Of a DNA stretch of 28,280 nucleotides, positions 1 to 25,668 are shown in pieces (positions within the stretch are counted from its first letter, which is position 1; every line of letters begins with the position of its first letter). The stretch is taken from UHGV virus genome UHGV-0263858; one strand, written 5' to 3'. Origin of the DNA: a virus. The notes under the pieces are model-generated. The model was given only the letters and a program-made list of their open reading frames with translations, had not been told where the DNA came from and did no database searches. The translations under genes were made by a program, and so were the position numbers.

Positions 1-992
1 CGAACCAGCCAGACCAGCATCAGGATAATCGCGACTAACAGTATCCACAGCGCGGGACGCGTTGCCATATTTTGCAACGTGTCCATCATCGGTGGAAAAG
101 GATTAAGCAGCGGTTGCATATCACGCGGATCAATCCCTTTAACCCGCCGTTGATAAAGCTGATTAAGAATATCCTCGGCCTGGGCAGAAGAAAGCGATGA
201 TTGCGCAGAAAGGCCATATTTTTGCTGGATATATGCCGATAACGCCGCCAGTTCACTGGCATCTAAAGGTTGTTTTAGCGCCATCTGTAGTGATTCCAGC
301 GTCGGCGTATTTTGCTGGCTTAACGTCTGGCGCGCCTGCAACCAGGTCACCAGATGGTTAAACAGTTTCGCTGGAATTAACTCGCCATCTTTCACCCCGG
401 AAAGTTCCAGCATCGATTGCCAGATCTGTTTGCTGGGTTCCCCCGTTGCCGCCGCAAGTTTGGTCACCAGCTGTTTGAGCGCATTGTGCTCCGCCGGTAA
501 TAAAGGACGGTCGGTCGCCTCGCGCTGCTGCGGTTGCGGAATAACCATCTTCCCTTCCTGCAACAGGGTGAGAATGGTTTTTAATTGCTCCGGTGAGAGC
601 TGATTCAGCGGCGTCTGACCAAAGTTATGACGGATATAATCCGTGACCGCCTGACGATTATTCCCCAGACGTAAATACTCGCCTAATTGCGCTAAAAGCT
701 GGCGGGCAGAATGGCTTTTTTGCGCGGCCAGCAGACGTTGCGCCAGATTATGTTCAGCGGCAGGGAAGTGACGCGAAAGCAGCGGTGAATCTCCCGACAG
801 ACCAATATCGTGCCTGATACCCGCCCACAGTTCTGCTCTTTGCTGTTGCGTCAGTGAGGTCACTTTCGTCATTAAGCTTTCCAGCGAAGTACGTTGCTGA
901 CTGGATAAAGGCTGATTGCCCGCGCCAGACGGCAGGTTATCTCCCTGACCTGGTGGTTGCCCAGGAGGAGGGCCGGAAATAGGTTGTATCAT
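1..992 (-). CDS. hypothetical membrane-anchored protein, 3'-partial (runs off left edge)
   Basis: Continuous minus-strand frame from ATG at 992 to position 1, verified codon by codon. N-terminus MIQPISGPPPGQPPGQG is Pro/Gln/Gly-rich, followed by three loosely repeated helical segments and a hydrophobic stretch (ALWILLVAIILMLVWLV) at the window edge. Not in the ORF track because it has no stop in the window. Family not recognised. Confidence 0.5.
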   Translation of the reverse strand, partial: MIQPISGPPPGQPPGQGDNLPSGAGNQPLSSQQRTSLESLMTKVTSLTQQQRAELWAGIRHDIGLSGDSPLLSRHFPAAEHNLAQRLLAAQKSHSARQLLAQLGEYLRLGNNRQAVTDYIRHNFGQTPLNQLSPEQLKTILTLLQEGKMVIPQPQQREATDRPLLPAEHNALKQLVTKLAAATGEPSKQIWQSMLELSGVKDGELIPAKLFNHLVTWLQARQTLSQQNTPTLESLQMALKQPLDASELAALSAYIQQKYGLSAQSSLSSAQAEDILNQLYQRRVKGIDPRDMQPLLNPFPPMMDTLQNMATRPALWILLVAIILMLVWLV

Positions 993-1131
993 TACGTATC
1001 CTTATACCTGAAATCTTCGCAAGTATGCCTGGCCGCGAGATTATGGCACACTTGTCCGGTTAACTCTCGTCTCATACAGGTAACACAAACGTGAAAATCC
1101 TTGTTGATGAAAAAGATGATTGGTTAATTTA

Positions 1132-1155
1132 TTGATATAAAAGGATTTATATCAA
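1132..1155. promoter_or_regulatory. perfect 10-bp inverted repeat TTGATATAAA-(4 bp)-TTTATATCAA, candidate operator
   Basis: Palindrome read directly in the intergenic region between the divergent genes starting at 992 (minus) and 1312 (plus). Confidence 0.3.
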
Positions 1156-1311
1156 CGTATGTCCACGCAGTGACCACATTTTCGAGATATAGTTAAAGCC
1201 CGTAAAATATGCGGGCTTTATAATTCTTGCTTTGCCCTCTTTTCAAACCATAAAATTTGTGTGCCTTTTTGGGGTGGTTAGTTTTATCTTTGATATTATG
1301 GAGAATTATTC

Positions 1312-2052
1312 ATGCTTCATTGGGTTTGTACAAAATGTCAGTCTAAAAATTCTACGAAGGAATCAGTGTGTCCTGCGTGTGGAACTTCTTTTTGGTCGAC
1401 GCAGAAAAAAGAAAGGAGAGGGTGTTTATTGTTGGTTGTAATGTTCTTCGTTGTGTTTTGGGTTATTGGGCAATTATCCGGAAACGAAACCGATTCACAG
1501 GTAAATAATATTCCATCGAAAGATCATATTGGCGATGAACTTGCTTTATCTGGAGTAGACAAGGCGAAACCGTATTCTTTTGTGCGTTATGATGACATAA
1601 GTTATGCGGGACGAAAGAGATTTAAGGTTTTTATAGTGTCGCCTGAGTCTCAAGATTTAGAATCAAGAGCTTCGACAGCAATGACCGCGGCTATTGAGTG
1701 GCAGAAAGAGAAGAGAGCTGACTTTGTATCTGTGTTGCTTCTACCTACGGAAAATTCTGAAGGTAGTTATCGGTTGGCAATGGTTGATTATTCTCCGGAT
1801 GGTTGCGGAACTGGTGCTGTATGTGATAATAAAAAATGGACTATATTGTCTAGTGACGTAATATTAACGAAATCGCAACTTCAATCTATATCCTTGTGGA
1901 ATGAGTATAAGAAAAAGTTTGCGGGTAATGATGGGATTTTGGATTTAAAGGAAGAAAAGAAATTGAAGCAGTTTATTAGTAAACAGCTAAATATTCCTGT
2001 TAAGGATGTATTTACTCCAGATATTTTTCCTTTAAAGAAAATCGAAGATTAA
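1312..2052 (+). CDS. hypothetical zinc-ribbon membrane protein (C-x2-C...C-x2-C N-terminus, one TM segment, ~185-aa C-terminal domain)
   Basis: ATG at 1312 preceded by GGAGAA. N-terminus CTKCQSKNSTKESVCPACG has two CxxC pairs, then a hydrophobic segment LLLVVMFFVVFWVIGQL. The gene is visibly AT-rich compared with the phage genes. A terminator follows at 2130-2166. Confidence 0.6.
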   Translation: MLHWVCTKCQSKNSTKESVCPACGTSFWSTQKKERRGCLLLVVMFFVVFWVIGQLSGNETDSQVNNIPSKDHIGDELALSGVDKAKPYSFVRYDDISYAGRKRFKVFIVSPESQDLESRASTAMTAAIEWQKEKRADFVSVLLLPTENSEGSYRLAMVDYSPDGCGTGAVCDNKKWTILSSDVILTKSQLQSISLWNEYKKKFAGNDGILDLKEEKKLKQFISKQLNIPVKDVFTPDIFPLKKIED

Positions 2053-2129
2053 CAAAATAAATAGACGAGACTGAATTAGTATTATTGTAATCTTTAACTG
2101 GTACCCTCACTTGTGAGGGCACCAAAAAG

Positions 2130-2166
2130 AAAACCCGCAGTTTTTACGCTGCGGGTTTCTGCTTTG
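2130..2166. terminator. bidirectional intrinsic terminator (stem CCCGCAG/CTGCGGG, flanked by A-run and T-run)
   Basis: Hairpin 2134-2155 followed by TTTCTGCTTT on the plus strand and TTTTCTTTTT on the minus strand. It sits between the converging 1312-2052 gene and the hok-like gene. Confidence 0.55.
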
Positions 2167-2244
2167 GGATGTGTATAGGGTGCCTTATCAGTCTTGCCCT
2201 GACAACCGATTGACGGGGGAATCTCTTCCCCCGTCGCGGTTTCC

Positions 2245-2385
2245 TTACTGTTTACACTGTAAGAACGCCGCAAACTCCGCTCCCCAGAAGCTCATCCGTA
2301 TCTCACACAGTGAACCGTGTAGCATCCAGATGATGAGGATTGCCGTTACGCAGAACGTAATGGCCGTAAGCGATTTTTGCGACAT
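2245..2385 (-). CDS. Hok/Gef-family type I toxin (46 aa)
   Basis: Manual translation gives MSQKSLTAITFCVTAILIIWMLHGSLCEIRMSFWGAEFAAFLQCKQ. It has a single N-terminal TM segment followed by SLCEIR and a C-terminal AAFL motif, matching the Hok/Gef signature (compare hokA ...SLCELH...ELAAFLACK). Start is preceded by AAAGGAGCAAGCGCT. Too short for the ORF track. Confidence 0.8.
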   Translation of the reverse strand: MSQKSLTAITFCVTAILIIWMLHGSLCEIRMSFWGAEFAAFLQCKQ

Positions 2386-2606
2386 AGCGCTTGCTCCTTT
2401 TTCGGGGAGGCGCTAACCTATCACTTGTCTAGGGTAGATGGTTAGGGCCTCGGTTAAACAAAAATGTTTTCCGGGGCCTTTCCACATCCGGCCTTCAGGT
2501 ATTCCCTCCAGCCATCAGCCGAAAGGCACCCGCGCGAATTCTAGCCTGGTTTTTTCCCTTGTTTCAATCCGTTGAGGCCTCTCAGCCTTCTGATATAAAA
2601 TTCCCG

Positions 2607-2672
2607 ACCGCAGACATTATTCAGTCACGCATTTGATACATGCTTCCGCCGGCGTTCGCGCCGGTTTTTTTT
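2607..2672 (+). ncRNA. putative Sok-like antisense RNA (about 65 nt) with its own promoter and terminator
   Basis: Plus-strand promoter-like TTGAGG (2572-2577), 16-bp spacer, TATAAA (2594-2599). A hairpin CCGGCG-TTCG-CGCCGG followed by T8 (2649-2672) lies about 65 nt downstream, antisense to the expected hok mRNA leader. Boundaries are predicted, not measured. Confidence 0.4.
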
Positions 2673-3054
2673 CCGTCCTGTTGCTGCGTAGATCGTCATG
2701 TGCGATCGAGGCTCGGTATTGATCCTTTTTTCAGTTTAATTCTGACTCTTGATTTTGCGCAGGCCGCGCTGCGTCTGGCTTCTTTGTTTGAGGGGTGTTT
2801 AACGCGATCCTTTCGCGATCGTGTCTTGTCCCACGTAAAGTATGAAAACTCTTTTAATATCAGCCTGTTTTCTTTCTCCTGCCATTCATGAGATCGTAAA
2901 AATCCCTCTGAAAACTGCAAAAAATTTCAAAACGTGAAATTTCAGATCTTCGCTTTTCCCTCAGTTGCTGCGCGGGCTGGCGGTCATTTTTGCACGGCAG
3001 AAAACTGAAAAAGTGTTTCGAGACAAAACCCGCGGGTTGGAGGGGGTAGCGCGG

Positions 3055-3094
3055 TTTACGTCACCTCACGCTTTACGTCACACCGTTTACGTGG
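3055..3094 (+). repeat. direct repeats TTTACGTCAC, TTTACGTCAC, TTTACGTGG at 3055, 3072 and 3086
   Basis: Read directly. An inverted copy CACGTAAA occurs at 2833-2840. Non-coding region just beyond the last late gene. Confidence 0.35.
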
Positions 3095-3146
3095 TGTGCG
3101 CATACAGCGCCAGAATGGCACGCAGAACGCATTAATCAGGTGGCAG

Positions 3147-3177
3147 ATATGAAAACGCACGACCGGAGCCGTGCGTT
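3147..3177 (-). terminator. intrinsic terminator closing the late operon
   Basis: Minus-strand hairpin AACGCACG / CGTGCGTT (8-bp stem, 3154-3161 with 3170-3177) followed by TTTTCAT, about 40 nt downstream of the stop at 3215. Confidence 0.55.
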
Positions 3178-3214
3178 GCGTGATGGGCGTTTATGGGGGT
3201 TTTATGCCCGGTGA

Positions 3215-4912
3215 TCAGGCGATAAGGTCACCGTATTTTTCGCGCAGGCTCGTAGCCTGTTTGGCGTCTGCGGCAAGTTCGCTGCTGTTTGTTGGTGCGC
3301 CGGTGTTGCTGTGGGTGTGGTTTGCAGTGTGTGTGGCCAGCAACTGAACCAGATCCAGAATATCAATCAACAACGTCAGCAGATTAAGTCCGGATTTTTC
3401 CCGTGAGCCACCGCGACCAATAAATACTGTCGGGGCTGTAAACTCCAGACCACCGTCCGCCCGGCATGTTCTGCGGCCTCCCACGTTTTCAGTAAGGTCG
3501 CGCTCAATCGTGGATGTCGCCCCTTTGAGTTGAGTCAGCAAACCCTGCGCTACCATCTGGATATGCTCACCGGCTGCGATCGCATAATGACCAGTAGTAA
3601 TGTGTTCTGTCTGGCCTGTCATCAGCTTGCTGGTTCCCAGAACGCTGGTTATGTCGTTTGCCTGTACTGTTGTTGTTCTGGTTGTTGTTGTGCGTTCTTC
3701 CTGATCGCTGTTAATGGTTCGCCTGGCTGAATGCTCCCTGATTTGCTGGTCGGTTTCTCTGTGCCAGCTTCCGTCAGTCGTGACACGCTGAAACACTTCT
3801 GCACGCTGTTGTTGCAGCTGTTCGCCGGGCTTTACATCAGGCAGGTTATGGCCAGCGGGTAAGATTTGCCTGATAACAGGCTTATCCGGGCGTCCTTCAA
3901 TGTTGGATATTTCCACGATGGTGCCTGCTGGCGGGTAGGCAAAACATCCCGCCTCACTGCCAGCCATGGGGACGGGGAGGGGTACTGCCGGGTAAACAGG
4001 CGTATCGCTTTTATCGTTGCCGTTCTCATCAAGCAACTGCACATCGACGGCGTAGCGTGGGCGGAAACTGTCGGCCACATCGCCCAGGGTGGTGGGCTCC
4101 GTTGGTGCAATGACGCGCGCCAGCCGGGTATGTAGCGTACCGCTGGCCAGTTCCGGGAACTGTGTCTCCATTTGTCTGCGTAATGGTGATTTGGAAACAG
4201 GGCTACCTGTGGCGGTAAGGCGCTCCCATGTCAGGGTCATTTTCTCGTTGTTGAGGGCCACACGGGTAATGCGCCCGGCCGGAAGGTTCACGCCCGGTCG
4301 CACAGTTTCCATAAACATGATGTCGATGCTGTTTCCGCCGCTTTGCCCGAGTGTGTACTGTTGCGGAATATTCGGCATCGTAATACTGGCAAATCGTGAA
4401 TCAGCTGCACTTCCCACAAATACAGAACCGTCCGGCATTGGGTGCCAGACGTAATCGCTGATGCTGAATGCACGCCCCAGCTGACTGAGTAACTGCGTTC
4501 CGCTGCCGCTGTGGGTGATGTAGGGAGTTGGTATACTGGCATAATCCGCATCCGGAGTGATAAAAACGATACCGCTTTGTCGCCCCAGATTATCGAGTAC
4601 CCCCCGCAGCGTCGGGTGTTGCATGGAGCAGGGGAAATCAAAATCCAGCACAGCAGCTGCTTCACGGATAAAAAGGCGACGTGAGCCATTTTCAGCAGGT
4701 TGATCGCGCTCAATGTAGCCGGAGAAATAGCGCCATGCTTCGCCGTCACGGCCGAGATCAATTTGCACCATTGCGCCGGCAAGGCTTTTTTCTGGTGACA
4801 GATTGTTAACAGAAATGAAGCCACGACCGGCGGCATTCAGGGTGAGAACAAGGCTTATATCGGCAATTTCCACCCGTTCGCCATTAATCATACAGCGTTG
4901 TATCAATTTCAT
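3215..4912 (-). CDS. hypothetical virion protein (565 aa), last gene of the late operon
   Basis: ATG at 4912 with SD GAGGAAGGG; ATGA overlap with the upstream gene. C-terminus contains THTANHTH (3311-3334), reminiscent of His-rich spike apex motifs. Not recognisable as tape measure, sheath or tube. Confidence 0.6.
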   Translation of the reverse strand: MKLIQRCMINGERVEIADISLVLTLNAAGRGFISVNNLSPEKSLAGAMVQIDLGRDGEAWRYFSGYIERDQPAENGSRRLFIREAAAVLDFDFPCSMQHPTLRGVLDNLGRQSGIVFITPDADYASIPTPYITHSGSGTQLLSQLGRAFSISDYVWHPMPDGSVFVGSAADSRFASITMPNIPQQYTLGQSGGNSIDIMFMETVRPGVNLPAGRITRVALNNEKMTLTWERLTATGSPVSKSPLRRQMETQFPELASGTLHTRLARVIAPTEPTTLGDVADSFRPRYAVDVQLLDENGNDKSDTPVYPAVPLPVPMAGSEAGCFAYPPAGTIVEISNIEGRPDKPVIRQILPAGHNLPDVKPGEQLQQQRAEVFQRVTTDGSWHRETDQQIREHSARRTINSDQEERTTTTRTTTVQANDITSVLGTSKLMTGQTEHITTGHYAIAAGEHIQMVAQGLLTQLKGATSTIERDLTENVGGRRTCRADGGLEFTAPTVFIGRGGSREKSGLNLLTLLIDILDLVQLLATHTANHTHSNTGAPTNSSELAADAKQATSLREKYGDLIA

Positions 4913-5484
4913 GTTTTCCCTTCCTCTTTCACGCTCCCGATGCCAACAGCATCCAGACCAGAGCCAACGGCATCATTGATTTTTTTCCAGAACGAACTTT
5001 GCGTATTCATGCCTTTGTCTGGTGCCTGTTCGCTACCGTTCTGAGTCTGCTGTCTGGCGATGGTTTTCTGCGAACCGCTGCGTGCGGATGCTTTCTCTGG
5101 CACGCTTAATTTTTCCCTGAGAGTAAAGGTGACCTGCCAGTGCATTTTTCCCTGTTGTTCCGTGGCATCAATGCCACCAGAAAATACCCCCTGTCGCATA
5201 TTGATTGCCTTCGCGGTAGCGTTAGCAATGCGATATGTTTTTTTAGCACCGTTGCTTTCTGTTGCCTCCGCAAGCTGAAAAATACGGGTCAGAATAGCTT
5301 CATCGTTAAAATCAATAACCCCCGACACGCGCAGCTCTTTAGCCTTGTTTCCCTGCTGGGCGCTCGTGGTGCTGGTTGACTGTCCGGACATATCTTTGTC
5401 CGGTAGTTGCATGGTGGCGCTGACGGTGATGTTGCGCAGCAGAATGGCTTCCCCGTCAAGCGCAAGGACAATCATCTGGGTCAT
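4909..5484 (-). CDS. hypothetical phage protein (191 aa)
   Basis: ATG at 5484 with SD AGGGA. It overlaps the upstream gene by 29 nt and the downstream gene by 4 nt (ATGA). Family not recognised. Confidence 0.55.
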   Translation of the reverse strand: MTQMIVLALDGEAILLRNITVSATMQLPDKDMSGQSTSTTSAQQGNKAKELRVSGVIDFNDEAILTRIFQLAEATESNGAKKTYRIANATAKAINMRQGVFSGGIDATEQQGKMHWQVTFTLREKLSVPEKASARSGSQKTIARQQTQNGSEQAPDKGMNTQSSFWKKINDAVGSGLDAVGIGSVKEEGKT

Positions 5485-6169
5485 GTAGTGCTTCCCTTAG
5501 TGATGAGAGATTATCGCCGACGAACAGAGTCACAGCTGTAAAAACCCACTCGGGGTGTGGGATGTTTTTTTGTATCAGCACTGCAGCCTGATTAAGGGCT
5601 CCTTTGTAGCAAAAGCGCCACACCGGGCAAAATTTTTGCCGGAGTGCGGCCTGCTGATCAGCGATTTCCTGTAAGGCTTTATCTCTCGCATTCATGAACT
5701 GATGCAGTGATGATGACAATGTTTCCGGTGATGTGGCGGCAGGAGTGGCAGCCTGTGCAATGGTTTCCGCCAGCGACATGCTGCGAGTGGTCTGTGTCGA
5801 CAGCATTATCGGTTCCGGAAGTGATGTTACCGGTCTGGCGGGGATTTGCATTCTGCTGATGGCCAGTGAAAGCTGGCTGGAGATCATGCGGGACATTCGT
5901 CCCACCTCTGGCAACGGAAATGCGCCTGAAAATTGCCTGGAGAGTGATAAAAACTCGCCAGCAGAAGGGGCACAAAACAACAGCGCCACAATGTCTTTTT
6001 CTGTGCTTTCTTTCAGGTAGGGTAAAAGTGCAGATACAGCATTTTCGGGGCTGAGATAACGCCCCGATGGTTTGATGTTTCCGGTATTTTCTGACCATGG
6101 ATGAAGGCAAACCACAGAACACTTAATGTTCATGGCTGACGGGCGCAGAATTGCCTTTTCCCATTTCAT
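5456..6169 (-). CDS. hypothetical phage protein (237 aa)
   Basis: ATG at 6169 with SD GGAGAG and ATGA overlap with the upstream gene. Family not recognised. Confidence 0.55.
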   Translation of the reverse strand: MKWEKAILRPSAMNIKCSVVCLHPWSENTGNIKPSGRYLSPENAVSALLPYLKESTEKDIVALLFCAPSAGEFLSLSRQFSGAFPLPEVGRMSRMISSQLSLAISRMQIPARPVTSLPEPIMLSTQTTRSMSLAETIAQAATPAATSPETLSSSLHQFMNARDKALQEIADQQAALRQKFCPVWRFCYKGALNQAAVLIQKNIPHPEWVFTAVTLFVGDNLSSLREALHDPDDCPCA

Positions 6170-6741
6170 TCTGACTCTCCAGCCTGAAAAGCGCGGATGT
6201 CGGCAAGATTATTAAGGCTATCCAGCACGTCCTTCATCTGTCGCTGACGGCGATAAATCCCGTCGTTGCGATCAGTCTGCGCCCGGGCCATCGCGGCTGC
6301 CAGCTCCTGAAGCTGCGCCATTGTCAGTGTGACAAGGTTATTTGCTGCATCCCCCCATCCCAGCGTTGACCGCGTACCTACAACCTTTGCAGCCATTGCC
6401 GCGGGCGCAATACGACTTATTGAGTCTGCACCACCATTCCAGGTGTGTCCGTTCCATTCGAACGTGAACGGCTGCGCTTCCTGTTCTGTGCGCCATGCTT
6501 CAATTTCTCGTTTTTTAGCGTCCTTTGCTGCTGCGATAAGTTCAGGTGATGCGGTGAACGGGGTTATCTCGCCCCATTTGCCGCTCTGCAGTTCCTGCCA
6601 GATGTGCTGGCCGGTTTTCGCTGTATCGTCTGGCGTGGCTGTGTAGGGAAGTGGGTCTTCCATTCCCTCAAACAGCACGTCGCAGTCAATCGCACCGGAT
6701 TCGGTATAACGGGGACTGGTAATCTCTTTTATCTGCATCAT
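6166..6741 (-). CDS. hypothetical phage protein (191 aa), possibly a fibre-associated chaperone or a tail tube
   Basis: ATG-ATG start at 6741 with SD GAGGG and ATGA overlap with the upstream gene. The C-terminal half (FEWNGHTWNGG...YRRQRQMKDVL) loosely resembles tail fibre assembly-type C-termini. Weak call. Confidence 0.5.
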   Translation of the reverse strand: MMQIKEITSPRYTESGAIDCDVLFEGMEDPLPYTATPDDTAKTGQHIWQELQSGKWGEITPFTASPELIAAAKDAKKREIEAWRTEQEAQPFTFEWNGHTWNGGADSISRIAPAAMAAKVVGTRSTLGWGDAANNLVTLTMAQLQELAAAMARAQTDRNDGIYRRQRQMKDVLDSLNNLADIRAFQAGESE

Positions 6742-8033
6742 GCAACCCTCACAAACAAAGAAACTAAGCCCCGGTTATAAAACTTAATATCCGGGCCGCC
6801 AGATAAAGCGACATATGTACCAGGCAGGGTATCCCTGTAGACAAATGACCTCGCAGCAGCACTAAATCCTGACGTGCGATACTCCGCTTCAAAGACCACC
6901 TGCCGGAGTCTTGAGCCTGACACGCCTTGTGCACGAAGTAACGTAACCTCACTGCTGCCATCGTCCGGTAGGTATGCAGCAAGAACCAGGCCTCCGGGGA
7001 ACGGAGGACGCTTTGATGTATTTTCTGTTGCATACAACAGTTGCATCAGGCGATTACGTGACCAGAACAACCGCGACCATGCTTCTGGCAGGTCTGACGG
7101 ACGCATGGATTTTTTAACCAGTACCTGATATTTCGCAGGACCTTCACCGAATCCCCCATCGTATTCTGCATCACCATGAAACGTTATCCACCGACGCGCT
7201 TCTGCTTCAATACCGGCAGAGTCAATTCCGTATCGTATGTCTATATCCACAAGTCCACGGAAATAAGGTTGCCCCATGTCATACGCAATGATGGGATTAT
7301 ACGAAGTGCTACTCCCTCCAGATTGTGTTACCGCGTAACGCCCGGGGGTGACTTCGAACACCCATTTCAGAAATTCGGCAGGGCCATTTTGGGCGCTGAA
7401 ATACACCACTTCCGACGAAGAGAACACATGCCCGTATCCGAACGCCCCCGGCAGAGCAAGACAACCTGCGGTGCGGTCGTAAATATTGCTCTGGACACCA
7501 AGCAAAGCGGCACTTTTCACCCCCAGATTGTCGCGGGATTCCTGCTGCGCCTCTTCCCCCTCTGCTGCAATCTCTGACAACCGGTTGGAGGTTCTCAGCA
7601 TTGATTTCAGTTCCGGGTAAATATCTACCTGCCAGCTCTGTGGAGGAACGGTAATTTGCGCAGCCTGAGCCACGCCCTGATAAGTAATCGTGAAATTCCT
7701 GACCAGTGACTCGCCAGCATGTTTCTGACGGACAGGGGTTTTTATTACGCCGCACAGTGTTCCGCTGGCCTGATGGATGAGGCAAATCCAGTCATAGCTG
7801 AATGCACAGTCATCAGGAACAACCGCGCTACACACAATATTGTTCGGGCTTAACTGGCCATAGGTCAGTTCATTCACGGTATATGTGATTTTTTCTTCCG
7901 GAACGGTATTATCTTCGCGCGTTGGTTCCCGCTCCATCAGGGCAAAAATAATAGTGTCAGGGCGTGCAGGTAAATTACTGGCTGTGCATTCAGCAACCCA
8001 CTTTTCAAATGCTTTCGTCAACAATGCGCTCAT
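6738..8033 (-). CDS. hypothetical virion protein (431 aa), possibly a second fibre/receptor-binding protein or a divergent sheath
   Basis: ATG at 8033, 6 nt after the tfa stop. Size fits a sheath, but no similarity to P2 FI is recognisable by eye. Confidence 0.55.
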   Translation of the reverse strand: MSALLTKAFEKWVAECTASNLPARPDTIIFALMEREPTREDNTVPEEKITYTVNELTYGQLSPNNIVCSAVVPDDCAFSYDWICLIHQASGTLCGVIKTPVRQKHAGESLVRNFTITYQGVAQAAQITVPPQSWQVDIYPELKSMLRTSNRLSEIAAEGEEAQQESRDNLGVKSAALLGVQSNIYDRTAGCLALPGAFGYGHVFSSSEVVYFSAQNGPAEFLKWVFEVTPGRYAVTQSGGSSTSYNPIIAYDMGQPYFRGLVDIDIRYGIDSAGIEAEARRWITFHGDAEYDGGFGEGPAKYQVLVKKSMRPSDLPEAWSRLFWSRNRLMQLLYATENTSKRPPFPGGLVLAAYLPDDGSSEVTLLRAQGVSGSRLRQVVFEAEYRTSGFSAAARSFVYRDTLPGTYVALSGGPDIKFYNRGLVSLFVRVA

Positions 8034-8039
8034 TACTTC

Positions 8040-8594
8040 TTAATTCTCGCTAATGTTCTGCGGTAATTCTGGCCATACAATTGCGGCATACGATGATTTA
8101 TCTGTAACCTGACTGAATGTCATCTCCCGTAACGTTTTTGTATAAATACGGCATGCTTTCAGTTTTTCCTTGTCTTCGTCGCTGATTAACCCCAGCAGCA
8201 GGTCTTTTTCCCATTCGCTGGTCATGATGCTAACCTGTTTTAACAGTGCATCACGCTCGTCTTCCGCTTTAAGTTTGTAGTCAAAAACAAATGCATCATT
8301 GCGGTAGAACCAGTAACCCGACGCCTCAATGCGACGATTGACGGTAATATCCGGTAGCTCAATCACGCTTTTATTTTCCGGGCAGATTGAGGTGATGTCT
8401 TTTCCAACCCAGACCACTTCGCCAGTTTCAACATAAATAACTTTCAGAGTGTCTGGCTGAAATTTTTCCTGGGCTTCGTGCCATTCCTGACCATCATCGG
8501 AGAACAGCCACAATAAAAATTTATGCTGTCGCGCCAGCTGGTATTGCTCAATTGTTTTAGGGTTTTGTGCCGTAAGATTTTTTAAGTGCATCAT
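8040..8594 (-). CDS. tail fibre assembly protein (P2 gpG / Tfa-like)
   Basis: 184 aa, ATG-ATG start, immediately downstream of the fibre gene. Tfa-like features (WFYRNDAFVFDY, C-terminal acidic helix). Confidence 0.7.
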   Translation of the reverse strand: MMHLKNLTAQNPKTIEQYQLARQHKFLLWLFSDDGQEWHEAQEKFQPDTLKVIYVETGEVVWVGKDITSICPENKSVIELPDITVNRRIEASGYWFYRNDAFVFDYKLKAEDERDALLKQVSIMTSEWEKDLLLGLISDEDKEKLKACRIYTKTLREMTFSQVTDKSSYAAIVWPELPQNISEN

Positions 8595-8596
8595 GA

Positions 8597-9814
8597 TTAC
8601 AAACTCGCTACATTTCGCCAGACGCCATTAATCAGAACCTGCACCGGGCGTGCATTGGCCCAGCCCACACTTTCACCGCCATCAACACCACTCAGTAAAT
8701 GACCTGATGGCGCATTTCCCCCGCGTCCAATACCAATGGCGCCTCCCAGACGCACATCCTGCACACCGCCTGTTTTGGTCTGATAGCGTGCATCAAAGTT
8801 TCCGTAGTCTGACGGTGTTACCCGCCCTGTAACGTTCACCGCCCGGTTGCTTTGTAACGCGCCATTCTGAAAACGGAATACATGCTGTCCATTGGCATAA
8901 ACATCCAGCAGGCCGTCACCATTCTGTTTAAAGCCAGTATCACTGTCACCAATTGCAATTGAGTTTCCGCCCAGCGCGTTCTGAACGCCGATACCCAGCG
9001 CACCATTGACCTGAGAACCGCCGCCAACAGACACTTTATGCGACATGGATATTTCACCCGTCCGCAGATTAATAGTGAACGGTCGAAGTGGACCAATATC
9101 GCCATTCTCGCCCTGACCTTCACTGGTAGGGATAAGGTGCAGGCACTCTTCCGAACGACGAAAAATCAGACCAAAGGCTTCGTTGAAAATCCTCAGCGCA
9201 TTAACACCACGGATTTTCAGTTCCCCGGTCATGGTGTCACCATCACGCTGAACGGCATTTTTTGCCTTGTCCACCGTAGGTTTTAATCCGAGGCTTTCAA
9301 CAGCCTCATCCTTGTCTTCCACATCCGAAAGATTCTTTTTTCGTTGCAGATAGCGTCTGTCTCCGATTTCCTGAGTAATAATGGCCCTGTCCGGATCAAC
9401 TTCCAGCACCACGTTTTGTGCGTGCGTCAGCCCAAGAACCAGCGTCAGAATAACTTCCTTGATAACGGAGTCCGTCTGGTCTGGTAAAAAGGTGTCCGGA
9501 TAACGTCCGTACGCGATAAGCGTACCTCTGTCGCTGATCATCCCCAGTTCACGAAGGGTTTTACCGGGGTATGATTTACAGTCAATCACAATATCCCCGC
9601 TGATGAAGCCCTCCTCCACCGCACCGTCGGAAAAGGGTTCCTGCCCGAATTCGCCGTACAACGATGTCATTGCTGCCATTTCATCCGGCGTGGATGGCAA
9701 TGCCCGCCCGCCCCCGTCACCAAGCAGAACATGCCGGACGGTCACGGTTTGCCCGTTCTGATATGCTGCTTCAATTTCTGCAGCGCCGGACGTTGTCAGA
9801 ATCAGTCCATTCAT
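8597..9814 (-). CDS. tail fibre protein (P2 gpH-like)
   Basis: 405 aa. N-terminus (LILTTSGAAEIEAA...VLLGDGGG) matches the conserved P2 H baseplate-attachment domain. ATGA overlap with the gpI-like gene. Confidence 0.8.
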   Translation of the reverse strand: MNGLILTTSGAAEIEAAYQNGQTVTVRHVLLGDGGGRALPSTPDEMAAMTSLYGEFGQEPFSDGAVEEGFISGDIVIDCKSYPGKTLRELGMISDRGTLIAYGRYPDTFLPDQTDSVIKEVILTLVLGLTHAQNVVLEVDPDRAIITQEIGDRRYLQRKKNLSDVEDKDEAVESLGLKPTVDKAKNAVQRDGDTMTGELKIRGVNALRIFNEAFGLIFRRSEECLHLIPTSEGQGENGDIGPLRPFTINLRTGEISMSHKVSVGGGSQVNGALGIGVQNALGGNSIAIGDSDTGFKQNGDGLLDVYANGQHVFRFQNGALQSNRAVNVTGRVTPSDYGNFDARYQTKTGGVQDVRLGGAIGIGRGGNAPSGHLLSGVDGGESVGWANARPVQVLINGVWRNVASL

Positions 9815-25308: not shown

Positions 25309-25383
<75 letters not shown>

Positions 25384-25499
25384 ATCCTGGAACTCGGCTA
25401 CCTGATTTTCATTCTGCACTGAATATCGAGAGAAGCTCTCTTTATTCGAGCCGGTAAGCGAACTTATCGTCTCGGGCTACGCCATCGCGTGGCCGAAAT

Positions 25500-25584
<85 letters not shown>

Positions 25585-25592
25585 GGACTTGA

Positions 25593-25668
<76 letters not shown>

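What the first reader, a model, noticed from the sequence alone, without database searches (positions are those of the whole stretch)
2245..2672. Hok/Gef-type type I toxin with a candidate Sok-like antisense RNA
A 46-aa ORF has the Hok/Gef architecture (N-terminal TM, SLCEIR, C-terminal AAFL). A hairpin terminator lies about 90 nt downstream. A plus-strand promoter-like TTGAGG-16-TATAAA, followed about 65 nt later by a classic terminator, is positioned antisense to where the hok mRNA leader should be. It sits at the distal edge of the phage late region and may act as an addiction module or be a chromosomal hok locus next to the insertion.
Basis: partly seen in the sequence, partly recalled or inferred. 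Interest (0 to 1): 0.5.

Follow-up and report, generated by a model that had tools for sequence, protein, structure and literature searches.

The report
Prophage hok/sok toxin-antitoxin cassette

Summary
The 46-aa ORF at 2245..2385 (-) is a real Hok/Gef toxin. It passes the Pfam threshold, matches PHROG 251 at E 1e-22, and is identical to RefSeq WP_000078916.1. It is under strong purifying selection. It sits in a complete hok-type transcription unit: promoter 2567..2538, 5' end near 2531, terminator 2159..2130. The roughly 410-nt mRNA is very structured (z = -9.2). Its 5' end (2531-2517) pairs with 2194-2178, like the tac/fbi pairing of hok mRNAs.

The Sok-like antitoxin is not at 2607-2672. 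By homology with the tested sokW, it starts from -35 TTGCTC (2391-2396) and -10 TAACCT (2414-2419) and spans about 2425-2483 (+). It has a free 5' tail, a long hairpin and a U-rich end.

They lie upstream of the hok start, outside the mobile cassette (which ends near 2555). Their complementarity to hok mRNA is no better than that of shuffled sequence.

The cassette travels with the prophage to three chromosomal sites, so it is prophage cargo. This copy has no mok frame overlapping hok, only a 24-codon upstream ORF. Verdict: known kind, low interest.

The parts
2538..2567 (-). hok promoter: -35 TTGAAA (2567-2562), 18-nt spacer, -10 TAGAAT (2543-2538). Predicted start near 2531.
   Evidence: Consensus scan, 10 of 12 matches. 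The hokW locus has TAGAAT at the equivalent position; most relatives appear to have TAGATT there (hand-reconstructed).
2122..2531 (-). Full-length hok mRNA, about 410 nt (predicted ends).
   Evidence: MFE -179.6 kcal/mol; shuffles -128.8 +/- 5.5; z -9.2. Rfam RF01794 position 1 aligns to 2531. In the tested hokW locus the same model starts at 603 and runs to the hok start codon.
2517..2531 (-). tac-like 5' end, GGGUGCCUUUCGGCU.
   Evidence: Pairs with 2194-2178 in the MFE structure and in the RNAalifold consensus of 30 relatives. In the seven core pairs the only changes are four GC-to-GU and one gap.
2178..2194 (-). fbi-like 3' element, AGACUGAUAAGGCACCC (core AAGGCACCC at 2186-2178).
   Evidence: In many relatives homology to the cassette ends exactly after this element, with different terminators downstream.
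2413..2487 (-). 24-codon leader ORF (AUG at mRNA +45, MWKGPGKHFCLTEALTIYPRQVIG, stop UAG 2415-2413). It is in frame with hok and ends 27 nt before the hok AUG. Possible mok substitute.
   Evidence: The AUG is kept in the E. coli-like relatives. ORF length and frame vary (8 to 79 codons); in some relatives it overlaps hok.
2385..2415 (-). Hairpin UAGCGCCUCC..GGAG..GCGCUA that sequesters the hok Shine-Dalgarno (GGAG 2397-2394) and reaches the A of the hok AUG.
   Evidence: MFE structure. RNAalifold columns 123-155; changes are wobble-compatible in nearly all sequences (GC:18/GU:12; UG:18/CG:11), with 0-1 of 30 broken per pair.
2245..2385 (-). hok coding sequence, 46 aa.
   Evidence: Pfam PF01848; PHROG 251; RefSeq WP_000078916.1 'Hok/Gef family protein'. 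3-8 synonymous against 0-1 non-synonymous differences in 24 close comparisons.
2211..2236 (-). GC-rich hairpin just after the hok stop codon, internal to the mRNA.
   Evidence: z -4.75. Compensatory changes at two pairs (GC to AU in 6 sequences; AU to GC or CG in 3). A hairpin occupies the same place in hokW.
2122..2159 (-). Intrinsic terminator of hok mRNA (stem 2159-2130, then a U-run).
   Evidence: The same terminator is shared by many relatives.
2391..2419 (+). Sok promoter: -35 TTGCTC (2391-2396, overlapping the hok SD), 17-nt spacer, -10 TAACCT (2414-2419).
   Evidence: TAACCT is invariant in 18 distinct variants and in sokW. The primers that made the sokW promoter-less mutant appear to replace this hexamer, and the mutant lost antitoxin activity (PMC8621323). 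The sense-strand AGGUUA is mostly unpaired in the hok mRNA consensus.
2425..2483 (+). Sok-like antisense RNA, about 58 nt (ends inferred): free 5' tail (about 2425-2440), hairpin 2444-2480, tail UUUCC.
   Evidence: Fold -24.8 kcal/mol, z -3.9. The same architecture appears in all 19 variants including sokW, and the plus strand is always 5-15 kcal/mol more stable than its complement. The target of the tail is the most variable part of the leader.
2572..2673 (+). Adjacent to the hok/sok cassette but not part of it.

Best explanation
Window 2122-2567 is a complete hok/sok-family type I toxin-antitoxin cassette, carried as cargo at the end of a tailed prophage in E. coli.

Shown here by sequence analysis:
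- The minus strand gives a roughly 410-nt, highly folded hok mRNA, from the promoter at 2567-2538 to the terminator at 2159-2130.
- Its 5' end (2531-2517) pairs with an element near its 3' end (2194-2178).
- The Shine-Dalgarno of the 46-aa membrane toxin Hok is buried in a local hairpin (2415-2385).
- The plus strand holds a conserved promoter (-35 at 2391-2396, -10 TAACCT at 2414-2419). The predicted RNA of about 58 nt (about 2425-2483) has a free 5' tail and a terminal hairpin and is fully complementary to the hok leader.

Inferred from the R1 hok/sok and Sp5 hokW/sokW paradigms:
- The full-length mRNA is stable but inert.
- Slow 3' trimming removes the 3' pairing partner, and the mRNA refolds into a translatable, Sok-accessible form.
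- Unstable Sok pairs with it, and RNase III destroys the duplex.
- When Sok supply stops (prophage loss, prophage induction, or a shut-off of host transcription by an infecting phage), Hok is made, enters the inner membrane and kills or lyses the cell.

In this copy no mok frame overlaps hok. Translation of a 24-codon upstream ORF, which ends at the foot of the SD hairpin and whose start abuts the Sok duplex, may do the coupling instead. This last step is speculative.

The plus-strand promoter-like site and terminator at 2572-2673 are a separate feature of the flank, not the antitoxin.
For: - Toxin identity: Pfam HOK_GEF above its cut-off; PHROG 251 'MokW-like host killing' E 1.3e-22; identical RefSeq protein annotated Hok/Gef.
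- Purifying selection on Hok: pN/pS at most 0.05 in 24 close comparisons.
- Leader homology: Rfam sok model RF01794 matches 2531-2372 full length at E 4.7e-9. It matches the tested hokW/sokW locus over the same extent at 113.5 bits.
- mRNA structure: fold z -9.2 with 5'-3' end pairing. The RNAalifold consensus of 30 relatives keeps the end pairing and the SD hairpin, and 12 pairs show compensatory changes.
- Sok promoter: the -10 is invariant and homologous to the sokW -10 (PMC8621323).
- Sok fold: conserved in 19 variants, with the strand asymmetry expected of a plus-strand RNA.
- Recognition region: the target of the Sok 5' tail is the most variable part of the leader. This agrees with the reported lack of cross-talk between hok/sok copies (PMC9841398).
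- Mobility: cassette homology runs from about 2100-2121 to 2555 in most of the fetched loci, drawn from phage, plasmid and chromosomal records.
- Prophage cargo.
Against: - No transcript, toxicity or processing data exist for this locus. All RNA ends are predicted.
- The Rfam score (46.3 bits) is below the gathering score (59).
- The Sok promoter hexamers match the sigma-70 consensus only 3 of 6 each and were not picked up by the scan.
- No ORF overlaps the hok start in this copy. Upstream ORFs in relatives differ in frame and length, whereas in R1 mok translation up to the hok SD is required (PMC9841398).
- The end-pairing core is nearly invariant, so it gives little covariation. One divergent allele (L099/L100) has three changes in the 5' element that are not compensated in the 3' element, and its fold loses the end pairing.
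Confidence: 0.88

Rival explanations
1. One reading: a short plus-strand RNA from 2607 to 2672 is the Sok-like antitoxin, antisense to the hok leader.
For: A promoter-like site (9 of 12) and a strong terminator with T8 exist at 2572-2601 and 2648-2673. The terminator is invariant in the 10 relatives of this prophage lineage aligned.
Against: - The unit lies upstream of the hok promoter and 5' end.
- It lies outside the conserved cassette.
- Its duplex energy with hok mRNA equals that of shuffles.
- It is absent from most of the fetched hok loci, for example the P2-like phage and plasmid copies.
- A Sok homologue exists elsewhere in the locus.
- The -10 hexamer is not kept in the divergent copies L099/L100.
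Confidence: 0.03
2. The 2572-2673 unit is an independent small RNA of this prophage lineage, or an insulating terminator. In the second case it stops plus-strand transcription (for example read-through of Sok past its weak UUUCC tail) from running antisense into the tail genes.
For: - The unit has a free 5' region, a GC hairpin and a U8 tail, which by general knowledge resembles an Hfq-type sRNA.
- It is divergent from, and back to back with, the hok promoter, with 4 bp between the -35 boxes.
- It is kept in 41 genomes.
- The T-run length varies from 5 to 8, which excludes a coding role.
Against: - The promoter-like count is not above chance.
- The fold z is only -2.0.
- There is no Rfam match.
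- The body is no better conserved than its flanks.
- No equivalent terminator is seen at the junction of the sibling prophage that lacks hok.
Confidence: 0.3
3. The cassette is a decaying, translationally silent hok copy, like several chromosomal hok loci of E. coli K-12. In this reading the mok frame has been lost.
For: - The frame that overlaps hok in relatives is closed in the window by UGA at codon 7 of the AUG+17 ORF and by UAG at 2431-2429.
- The upstream ORFs vary widely in length among relatives.
Against: - Hok is under strong purifying selection across many contexts.
- Both promoters, the end pairing, the SD hairpin and the Sok fold are intact.
- 311 IMG/VR stretches encode a relative, and the 80 loci kept all encode the identical 46-aa protein.
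Confidence: 0.12

Closest known systems
hok/sok (parB) of plasmid R1
   Same: - A small N-terminally anchored membrane toxin with the LCE-R motif.
- A roughly 400-nt structured mRNA with 5'-3' end pairing (tac/fbi).
- A sequestered Shine-Dalgarno.
- A short cis-antisense RNA with its own promoter inside the leader, with a single-stranded 5' tail and a terminal hairpin.
Element definitions are from PMC9841398. Evidence here.
   Different: - The toxin is 46 aa instead of 52.
- The leader is 146 nt instead of about 174.
- There is no 70-codon mok overlapping hok in this copy.
- It is carried by a prophage, not a plasmid.
- The ucb and dcb boxes were not identified.
hokW/sokW of Stx2 prophage Sp5 / 933W (Takada et al. 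2021, PMC8621323)
   Same: - It is prophage-borne.
- The promoter boxes are homologous (hok -10 TAGAAT; sok -10 TAACCT).
- It has a 5' GGGUGC paired with a 3' GCACCC, a hairpin after the stop codon, and the same Sok architecture.
- For hokW, toxicity, antitoxin activity, dependence on RNase III and Hfq, and loss of sokW on induction were shown experimentally.
   Different: - The toxins share only 31% identity over 35 aa. HokW is 51 aa and, judging from its sequence, resembles HokC/HokD (own knowledge).
- The hokW upstream ORF is in frame and continuous with hokW (70-aa orf74).
- It is a separate locus. Sp5 also carries a copy of the window's cassette type next to lom.
Chromosomal HokA of E. 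coli (NCBIfam NF007290)
   Same: It is the best NCBIfam match (E 2.2e-8) and shares the MxQK start and the AAFL-C-K end.
   Different: The score of 34 bits is far below the equivalog cut-off of 89, so this is not HokA.
PHROG 251 'MokW-like host killing' morons of P2-like and lambdoid phages
   Same: Full-length match at E 1.3e-22. The same cassette at 87-91% DNA identity is present in phages Chuche, P88, P884B11, 500465-2 and Shae_phiSM. In Chuche it lies between a gene annotated 'transcriptional regulator' (in the position ogr holds on two plasmid-borne copies) and the integrase side.
   Different: Here it follows a baseplate gene (565 aa, PHROG 2258) in a different prophage backbone, with an extra 165-bp flank (2556-2720).

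Membership tests
Hok/Gef toxin family (Pfam PF01848) | Profile match above the curated threshold | tested here: met
   29.9 bits against a cut-off of 22, E 4.1e-7, profile positions 5-42 of 42. PHROG 251 E 1.3e-22.
Hok/Gef toxin family (Pfam PF01848) | About 50 aa with a single N-terminal transmembrane helix | tested here: met
   46 aa. The 19-residue hydropathy mean is 1.9-2.0 for residues 4-27.
Hok/Gef toxin family (Pfam PF01848) | Conserved cysteine in the LCE(I/V)R motif and a conserved C-terminal A-A-F part | tested here: met
   C27, A36, E37, A39, A40, L42 and C44 are invariant in 27 homologues. The window has SLCEIR and AAFLQC.
Hok/Gef toxin family (Pfam PF01848) | Membrane depolarisation or killing on expression | not testable with these tools
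   Purifying selection gives only indirect support.
hok/sok type I toxin-antitoxin locus (R1 paradigm) | Cis-encoded antisense RNA with its own promoter, complementary to the hok leader | tested here: met
   Met at the sequence level only. The promoter is homologous to the tested sokW promoter and the -10 is invariant. The fold is conserved. The transcript itself has not been observed.
hok/sok type I toxin-antitoxin locus (R1 paradigm) | Long-range 5'-3' pairing (tac/fbi) in a roughly 400-nt structured mRNA | tested here: met
   15 of the first 15 nt are paired to 2194-2178; z -9.2. The pairing is kept in the consensus of 30 relatives with only wobble changes. Caveat: it is uncompensated in allele L099/L100.
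hok/sok type I toxin-antitoxin locus (R1 paradigm) | mok reading frame that starts in the Sok target region and overlaps the hok start | tested here: not met
   No ORF overlaps the hok start in the window. There is only a 24-codon in-frame ORF ending 27 nt upstream. Some relatives have 61-87-codon overlapping ORFs.
hok/sok type I toxin-antitoxin locus (R1 paradigm) | Match to Rfam RF01794 (sok / hok leader) at the gathering score | tested here: inconclusive
   46.3 bits against 59, but full model length and E 4.7e-9 in a 901-nt search. There was no hit at gathering threshold.
hok/sok type I toxin-antitoxin locus (R1 paradigm) | 3' processing to an active mRNA, and RNase III cleavage of the duplex | not testable with these tools
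   Inferred from PMC9841398 and PMC8621323.
HokA equivalog (NCBIfam NF007290) | Score above the equivalog cut-off | tested here: not met
   34 bits against 89.

The most novel reading that the evidence does not exclude
This widespread Hok subfamily may work without a mok frame that overlaps hok. Instead, a short upstream ORF (AUG at mRNA +45) could couple by termination. Its initiation would be blocked by the adjacent Sok duplex, and its stop codon sits at the foot of the hairpin that hides the hok Shine-Dalgarno. Separately, the 65-nt plus-strand unit at 2607-2672 could be an uncharacterised prophage small RNA, transcribed divergently from the hok promoter.
Probability: 0.2. Interest if true: 0.4.

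Novelty: already known. Interest (0 to 1): 0.15.

Why it matters
The value here is mainly in correcting the annotation.

- **Identity.** The toxin gene is already annotated as Hok/Gef in RefSeq and as a 'MokW-like' moron in phage records. Similar DNA to the 2050-2750 query occurs in about a third of complete E. coli genomes.
- **Antitoxin.** The analysis places the unannotated Sok RNA and its promoter, the mRNA ends and the end-pairing elements. It shows that the nearby promoter-like site and terminator are not the antitoxin.
- **Cargo slot.** The end of this prophage lineage is an exchangeable cargo slot. It holds hok/sok in some prophages and a YafO toxin-antitoxin plus a nuclease in another. 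This fits the view of prophage ends as hotspots for addiction and defence genes.
- **Open point.** The missing mok overlap, together with the several Sok recognition types attached to an almost invariant toxin, offers modest material for studying how hok/sok copies avoid cross-talk.

Tried and rejected
- **The search for related loci with the single 46-aa protein.** Solved by giving an alignment of homologues instead.
- **Rfam at gathering thresholds.** Gave only three tRNAs. The sok match appeared only in the E-value search.
- **Longer protein homologues (59-81 aa).** I checked whether they are mok-hok fusions. They are C-terminal read-throughs or frameshifts, and all start with MSQKS.
- **Covariation in tac/fbi, using the divergent allele L099/L100.** The 5' element differs at three positions, but the 3' element is unchanged and the end pairing is lost in the fold. 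This test gave no support.
- **Flank 2556-3214 in deposited phage genomes.** No match.
- **Equivalent plus-strand terminator at the cargo junction of the hok-less sibling prophage.** None seen.
- **HokA membership.** Rejected on score.
- **The validated hokW/sokW locus as the same locus as the window's type.** It is not. Sp5 carries both types at different places.
- **A protein comparison.** Failed on wrong coordinates and was repeated correctly.

Full report
**Source and context.** The window is E. coli chromosomal DNA. Bases 1-9273 are 99.6% identical to strain STEC316. In that strain the gene order is flk, a DUF4875 gene (1312-2052, +), a 'Hok/Gef family protein' (2245-2385, -), then a 565-aa baseplate protein (3215-4912, -; PHROG 2258), tail fibres and the rest of a tailed prophage. 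Beyond about 6.2 kb the window resembles a common prophage with terminase, portal, S49 protease and tail sheath genes.

**The toxin.**
- It passes Pfam HOK_GEF: 29.9 bits against a cut-off of 22.
- It matches PHROG 251 'MokW-like host killing' over its full length at E 1.3e-22.
- It is identical to RefSeq WP_000078916.1, which is also found on plasmid-borne P2-like elements.
- It is closest to HokA among NCBIfam models but far below that cut-off. It shares 31% identity with the tested HokW.
- Residues 4-27 form a hydrophobic helix.
- Across 24 relatives of 87-96% DNA identity there are 3-8 synonymous and 0-1 non-synonymous differences, so the peptide is under strong purifying selection.
- The longer database forms are C-terminal read-throughs, not N-terminal extensions.

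**The hok transcription unit.**
- A minus-strand promoter, TTGAAA-18-TAGAAT (2567-2538), predicts a start near 2531. A minus-strand terminator lies at 2159-2130, 86 nt after the stop codon.
- The Rfam 'sok' model RF01794 matches 2531-2372 on the hok strand over its full length: 46.3 bits, E 4.7e-9, below the gathering score of 59.
- The same model hits the experimentally tested hokW/sokW locus of prophage Sp5 at 113.5 bits on the hok strand, starting at 603, where the leader sequence begins, and ending at the hok start codon. The model therefore describes the hok leader in sense orientation, and position 1 marks the 5' end.
- The 410-nt RNA 2531-2122 folds to -179.6 kcal/mol against -128.8 +/- 5.5 for shuffles, z -9.2.
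- Its first 15 nt (GGGUGCCUUUCGGCU) pair with AGACUGAUAAGGCACCC (2194-2178). This corresponds to the tac/fbi end pairing that keeps hok mRNAs inert (PMC9841398).
- RNAalifold on 30 relatives keeps this pairing in the consensus. In the seven core pairs the only changes are four GC-to-GU and one gap. It also keeps a hairpin (2415-2385) that buries the hok Shine-Dalgarno. Twelve pairs elsewhere show compensatory double changes.
- In many relatives homology ends right after the 3' pairing element, with unrelated terminators downstream. This marks that element as the functional 3' border of the cassette.

**The antitoxin.**
- On the plus strand, TTGCTC (2391-2396), 17 nt and TAACCT (2414-2419) align with the sokW promoter (TTGCCT-17-TAACCT).
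- The mutagenesis primers for the promoter-less sokW construct appear to replace that TAACCT, and the mutant lost antitoxin activity (PMC8621323).
- TAACCT is invariant in 18 distinct variants of the window's cassette type. Its sense-strand complement is mostly unpaired in the hok mRNA consensus, so promoter function is the simplest reason for its conservation.
- The predicted RNA (about 2425-2483) has a free 5' tail, a long hairpin (2444-2480) and a UUUCC end; z -3.9.
- All 19 variants, sokW included, adopt this shape. In every one the plus strand is 5-15 kcal/mol more stable than its complement because of G-U pairs, as expected if the plus-strand RNA is what selection sees.
- The leader is most variable exactly where the Sok tail (2441-2432) and the hairpin interior (2471-2462) map. 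This agrees with the reported lack of cross-inhibition between hok/sok copies (PMC9841398).

- The hexamers and the strong terminator at 2572-2673 are real, but they lie 76-141 nt upstream of the hok 5' end.
- In most of the fetched loci, homology to the window stops at about 2555.
- The segment 2556-2722 occurs in only 41 of 5426 complete E. coli genomes. The 2050-2750 query holding the hok cassette matched 1757. No deposited phage genome holds 2556-3214.
- The candidate's best duplex with hok mRNA is -44.1 kcal/mol, against a shuffle mean of -45.1. The real Sok region gives -118.7.
- Promoter-like sites are not enriched here: 2 against 1.2 +/- 1.0. The -10 is not kept in divergent copies.
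- The unit may be an insulating terminator or a lineage-specific small RNA. The variable T-run (5-8) rules out coding. Nothing ties it to hok regulation.

**mok.**
- No ORF overlaps the hok start in the window.
- The AUG at mRNA +45 (2487) opens a 24-codon ORF in frame with hok that stops at UAG 2415-2413.
- The frame that overlaps hok in relatives is closed in the window by UGA and UAG codons.
- Relatives show 61-87-codon overlapping ORFs starting from AUG+17 or AUG+45, or short ORFs ending at +71 to +130.
- The R1-type mok feature is therefore not met in this copy. A termination-coupled short ORF is possible but speculative.

**Ownership and role.**
- The same hok cassette and flank sit next to the same baseplate gene in prophages inserted beside flk, serS and raiA.
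- In IMG/VR prophage contigs hok is often the last gene.
- A sibling prophage has a YafO-type toxin-antitoxin and an ATP-dependent nuclease in place of hok plus 2556-2720.
- The cassette is therefore exchangeable prophage cargo, not a chromosomal locus that happens to adjoin the insertion.
- Likely roles, by analogy: stabilising the prophage by post-segregational killing, helping lysis on induction as shown for hokW (PMC8621323), or excluding other phages. The last is from my own recollection of the R1 hok/sok literature and was not checked here.

**Caveats.**
- All RNA ends are predictions, and no expression data were available.
- One divergent allele (L099/L100) has an altered 5' element with no compensation in the 3' element, and its fold loses the end pairing.

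**Verdict.** This is a known kind of system. Interest is low.

Noticed in passing
window 3052-3094 (and 2831-2839): Two copies of TTTACGTCAC (3055-3064 and 3072-3081), a third TTTACGTGG (3086-3094) and an inverted CCACGTAAA (2831-2839). They lie in a block (about 3010-3130) that is nearly invariant among nine related prophages. A similar GTGACGTAAA..TTTACGTG motif directly abuts the hok cassette in loci L056 and L084. It could be a protein-binding or packaging site; its function is unknown.
   Followed up: partly
window 25309-25668 (-): Three clustered tRNA genes, Thr(UGU), Tyr(GUA) and Gly(UCC), lie inside or at the far side of the prophage region. The order is the same as the first three tRNAs of the E. 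coli thrU-tyrU-glyT cluster (own knowledge). The STEC316 record does not annotate them at the equivalent distance.
   Followed up: no
window 2721 (cargo boundary); locus L097 1390-2500: A sibling prophage with the same baseplate gene carries a YafO-family type II toxin, a hypothetical protein and an ATP-dependent nuclease where the window has hok plus 2556-2720. Other siblings add Com plus a DNA methyltransferase and a TM2-domain gene. This is an exchangeable cargo or defence slot at the prophage end.
   Followed up: partly
window 9273 onwards: The window is 99.6% identical to STEC316 up to 9273 and then diverges. From about 6.2 to 25 kb it matches a different, common prophage at 94-98%. The prophage is therefore mosaic around the tail-fibre genes.
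   Followed up: no
locus L015 region of STEC316, dmsA side: In STEC316 the prophage that starts next to flk ends with an integrase next to dmsA. These two genes are far apart in E. coli K-12 (own knowledge), which suggests a prophage-mediated chromosomal rearrangement in that strain.
   Followed up: no
loci L099 and L100 (hok leader): A second allele of the cassette has nearly the same Hok but a wholly different Sok and target region (-10 TAAGCT and a different hairpin). Its mRNA 5' end is altered (GGACACC) and no longer pairs with the 3' element. It gives no Rfam match at E 0.01 or better.
   Followed up: partly
locus L094 (phage VT2-Sakai 44527-44906) and L098 (57501-57827): Prophage Sp5 / VT2-Sakai carries two different hok cassettes. 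One is the tested hokW/sokW. The other, next to lom, is an unannotated copy of the window's type at 81% identity, and its upstream ORF is only 8 codons long.
   Followed up: partly
window 1312-2052 (+): The gene between flk and hok encodes a 246-aa protein with an N-terminal zinc-ribbon, a hydrophobic segment and a DUF4875 domain (Pfam E 8e-35; PHROG 28655). It is absent from the serS- and raiA-site prophages, so it may be further cargo or a separate islet.
   Followed up: no
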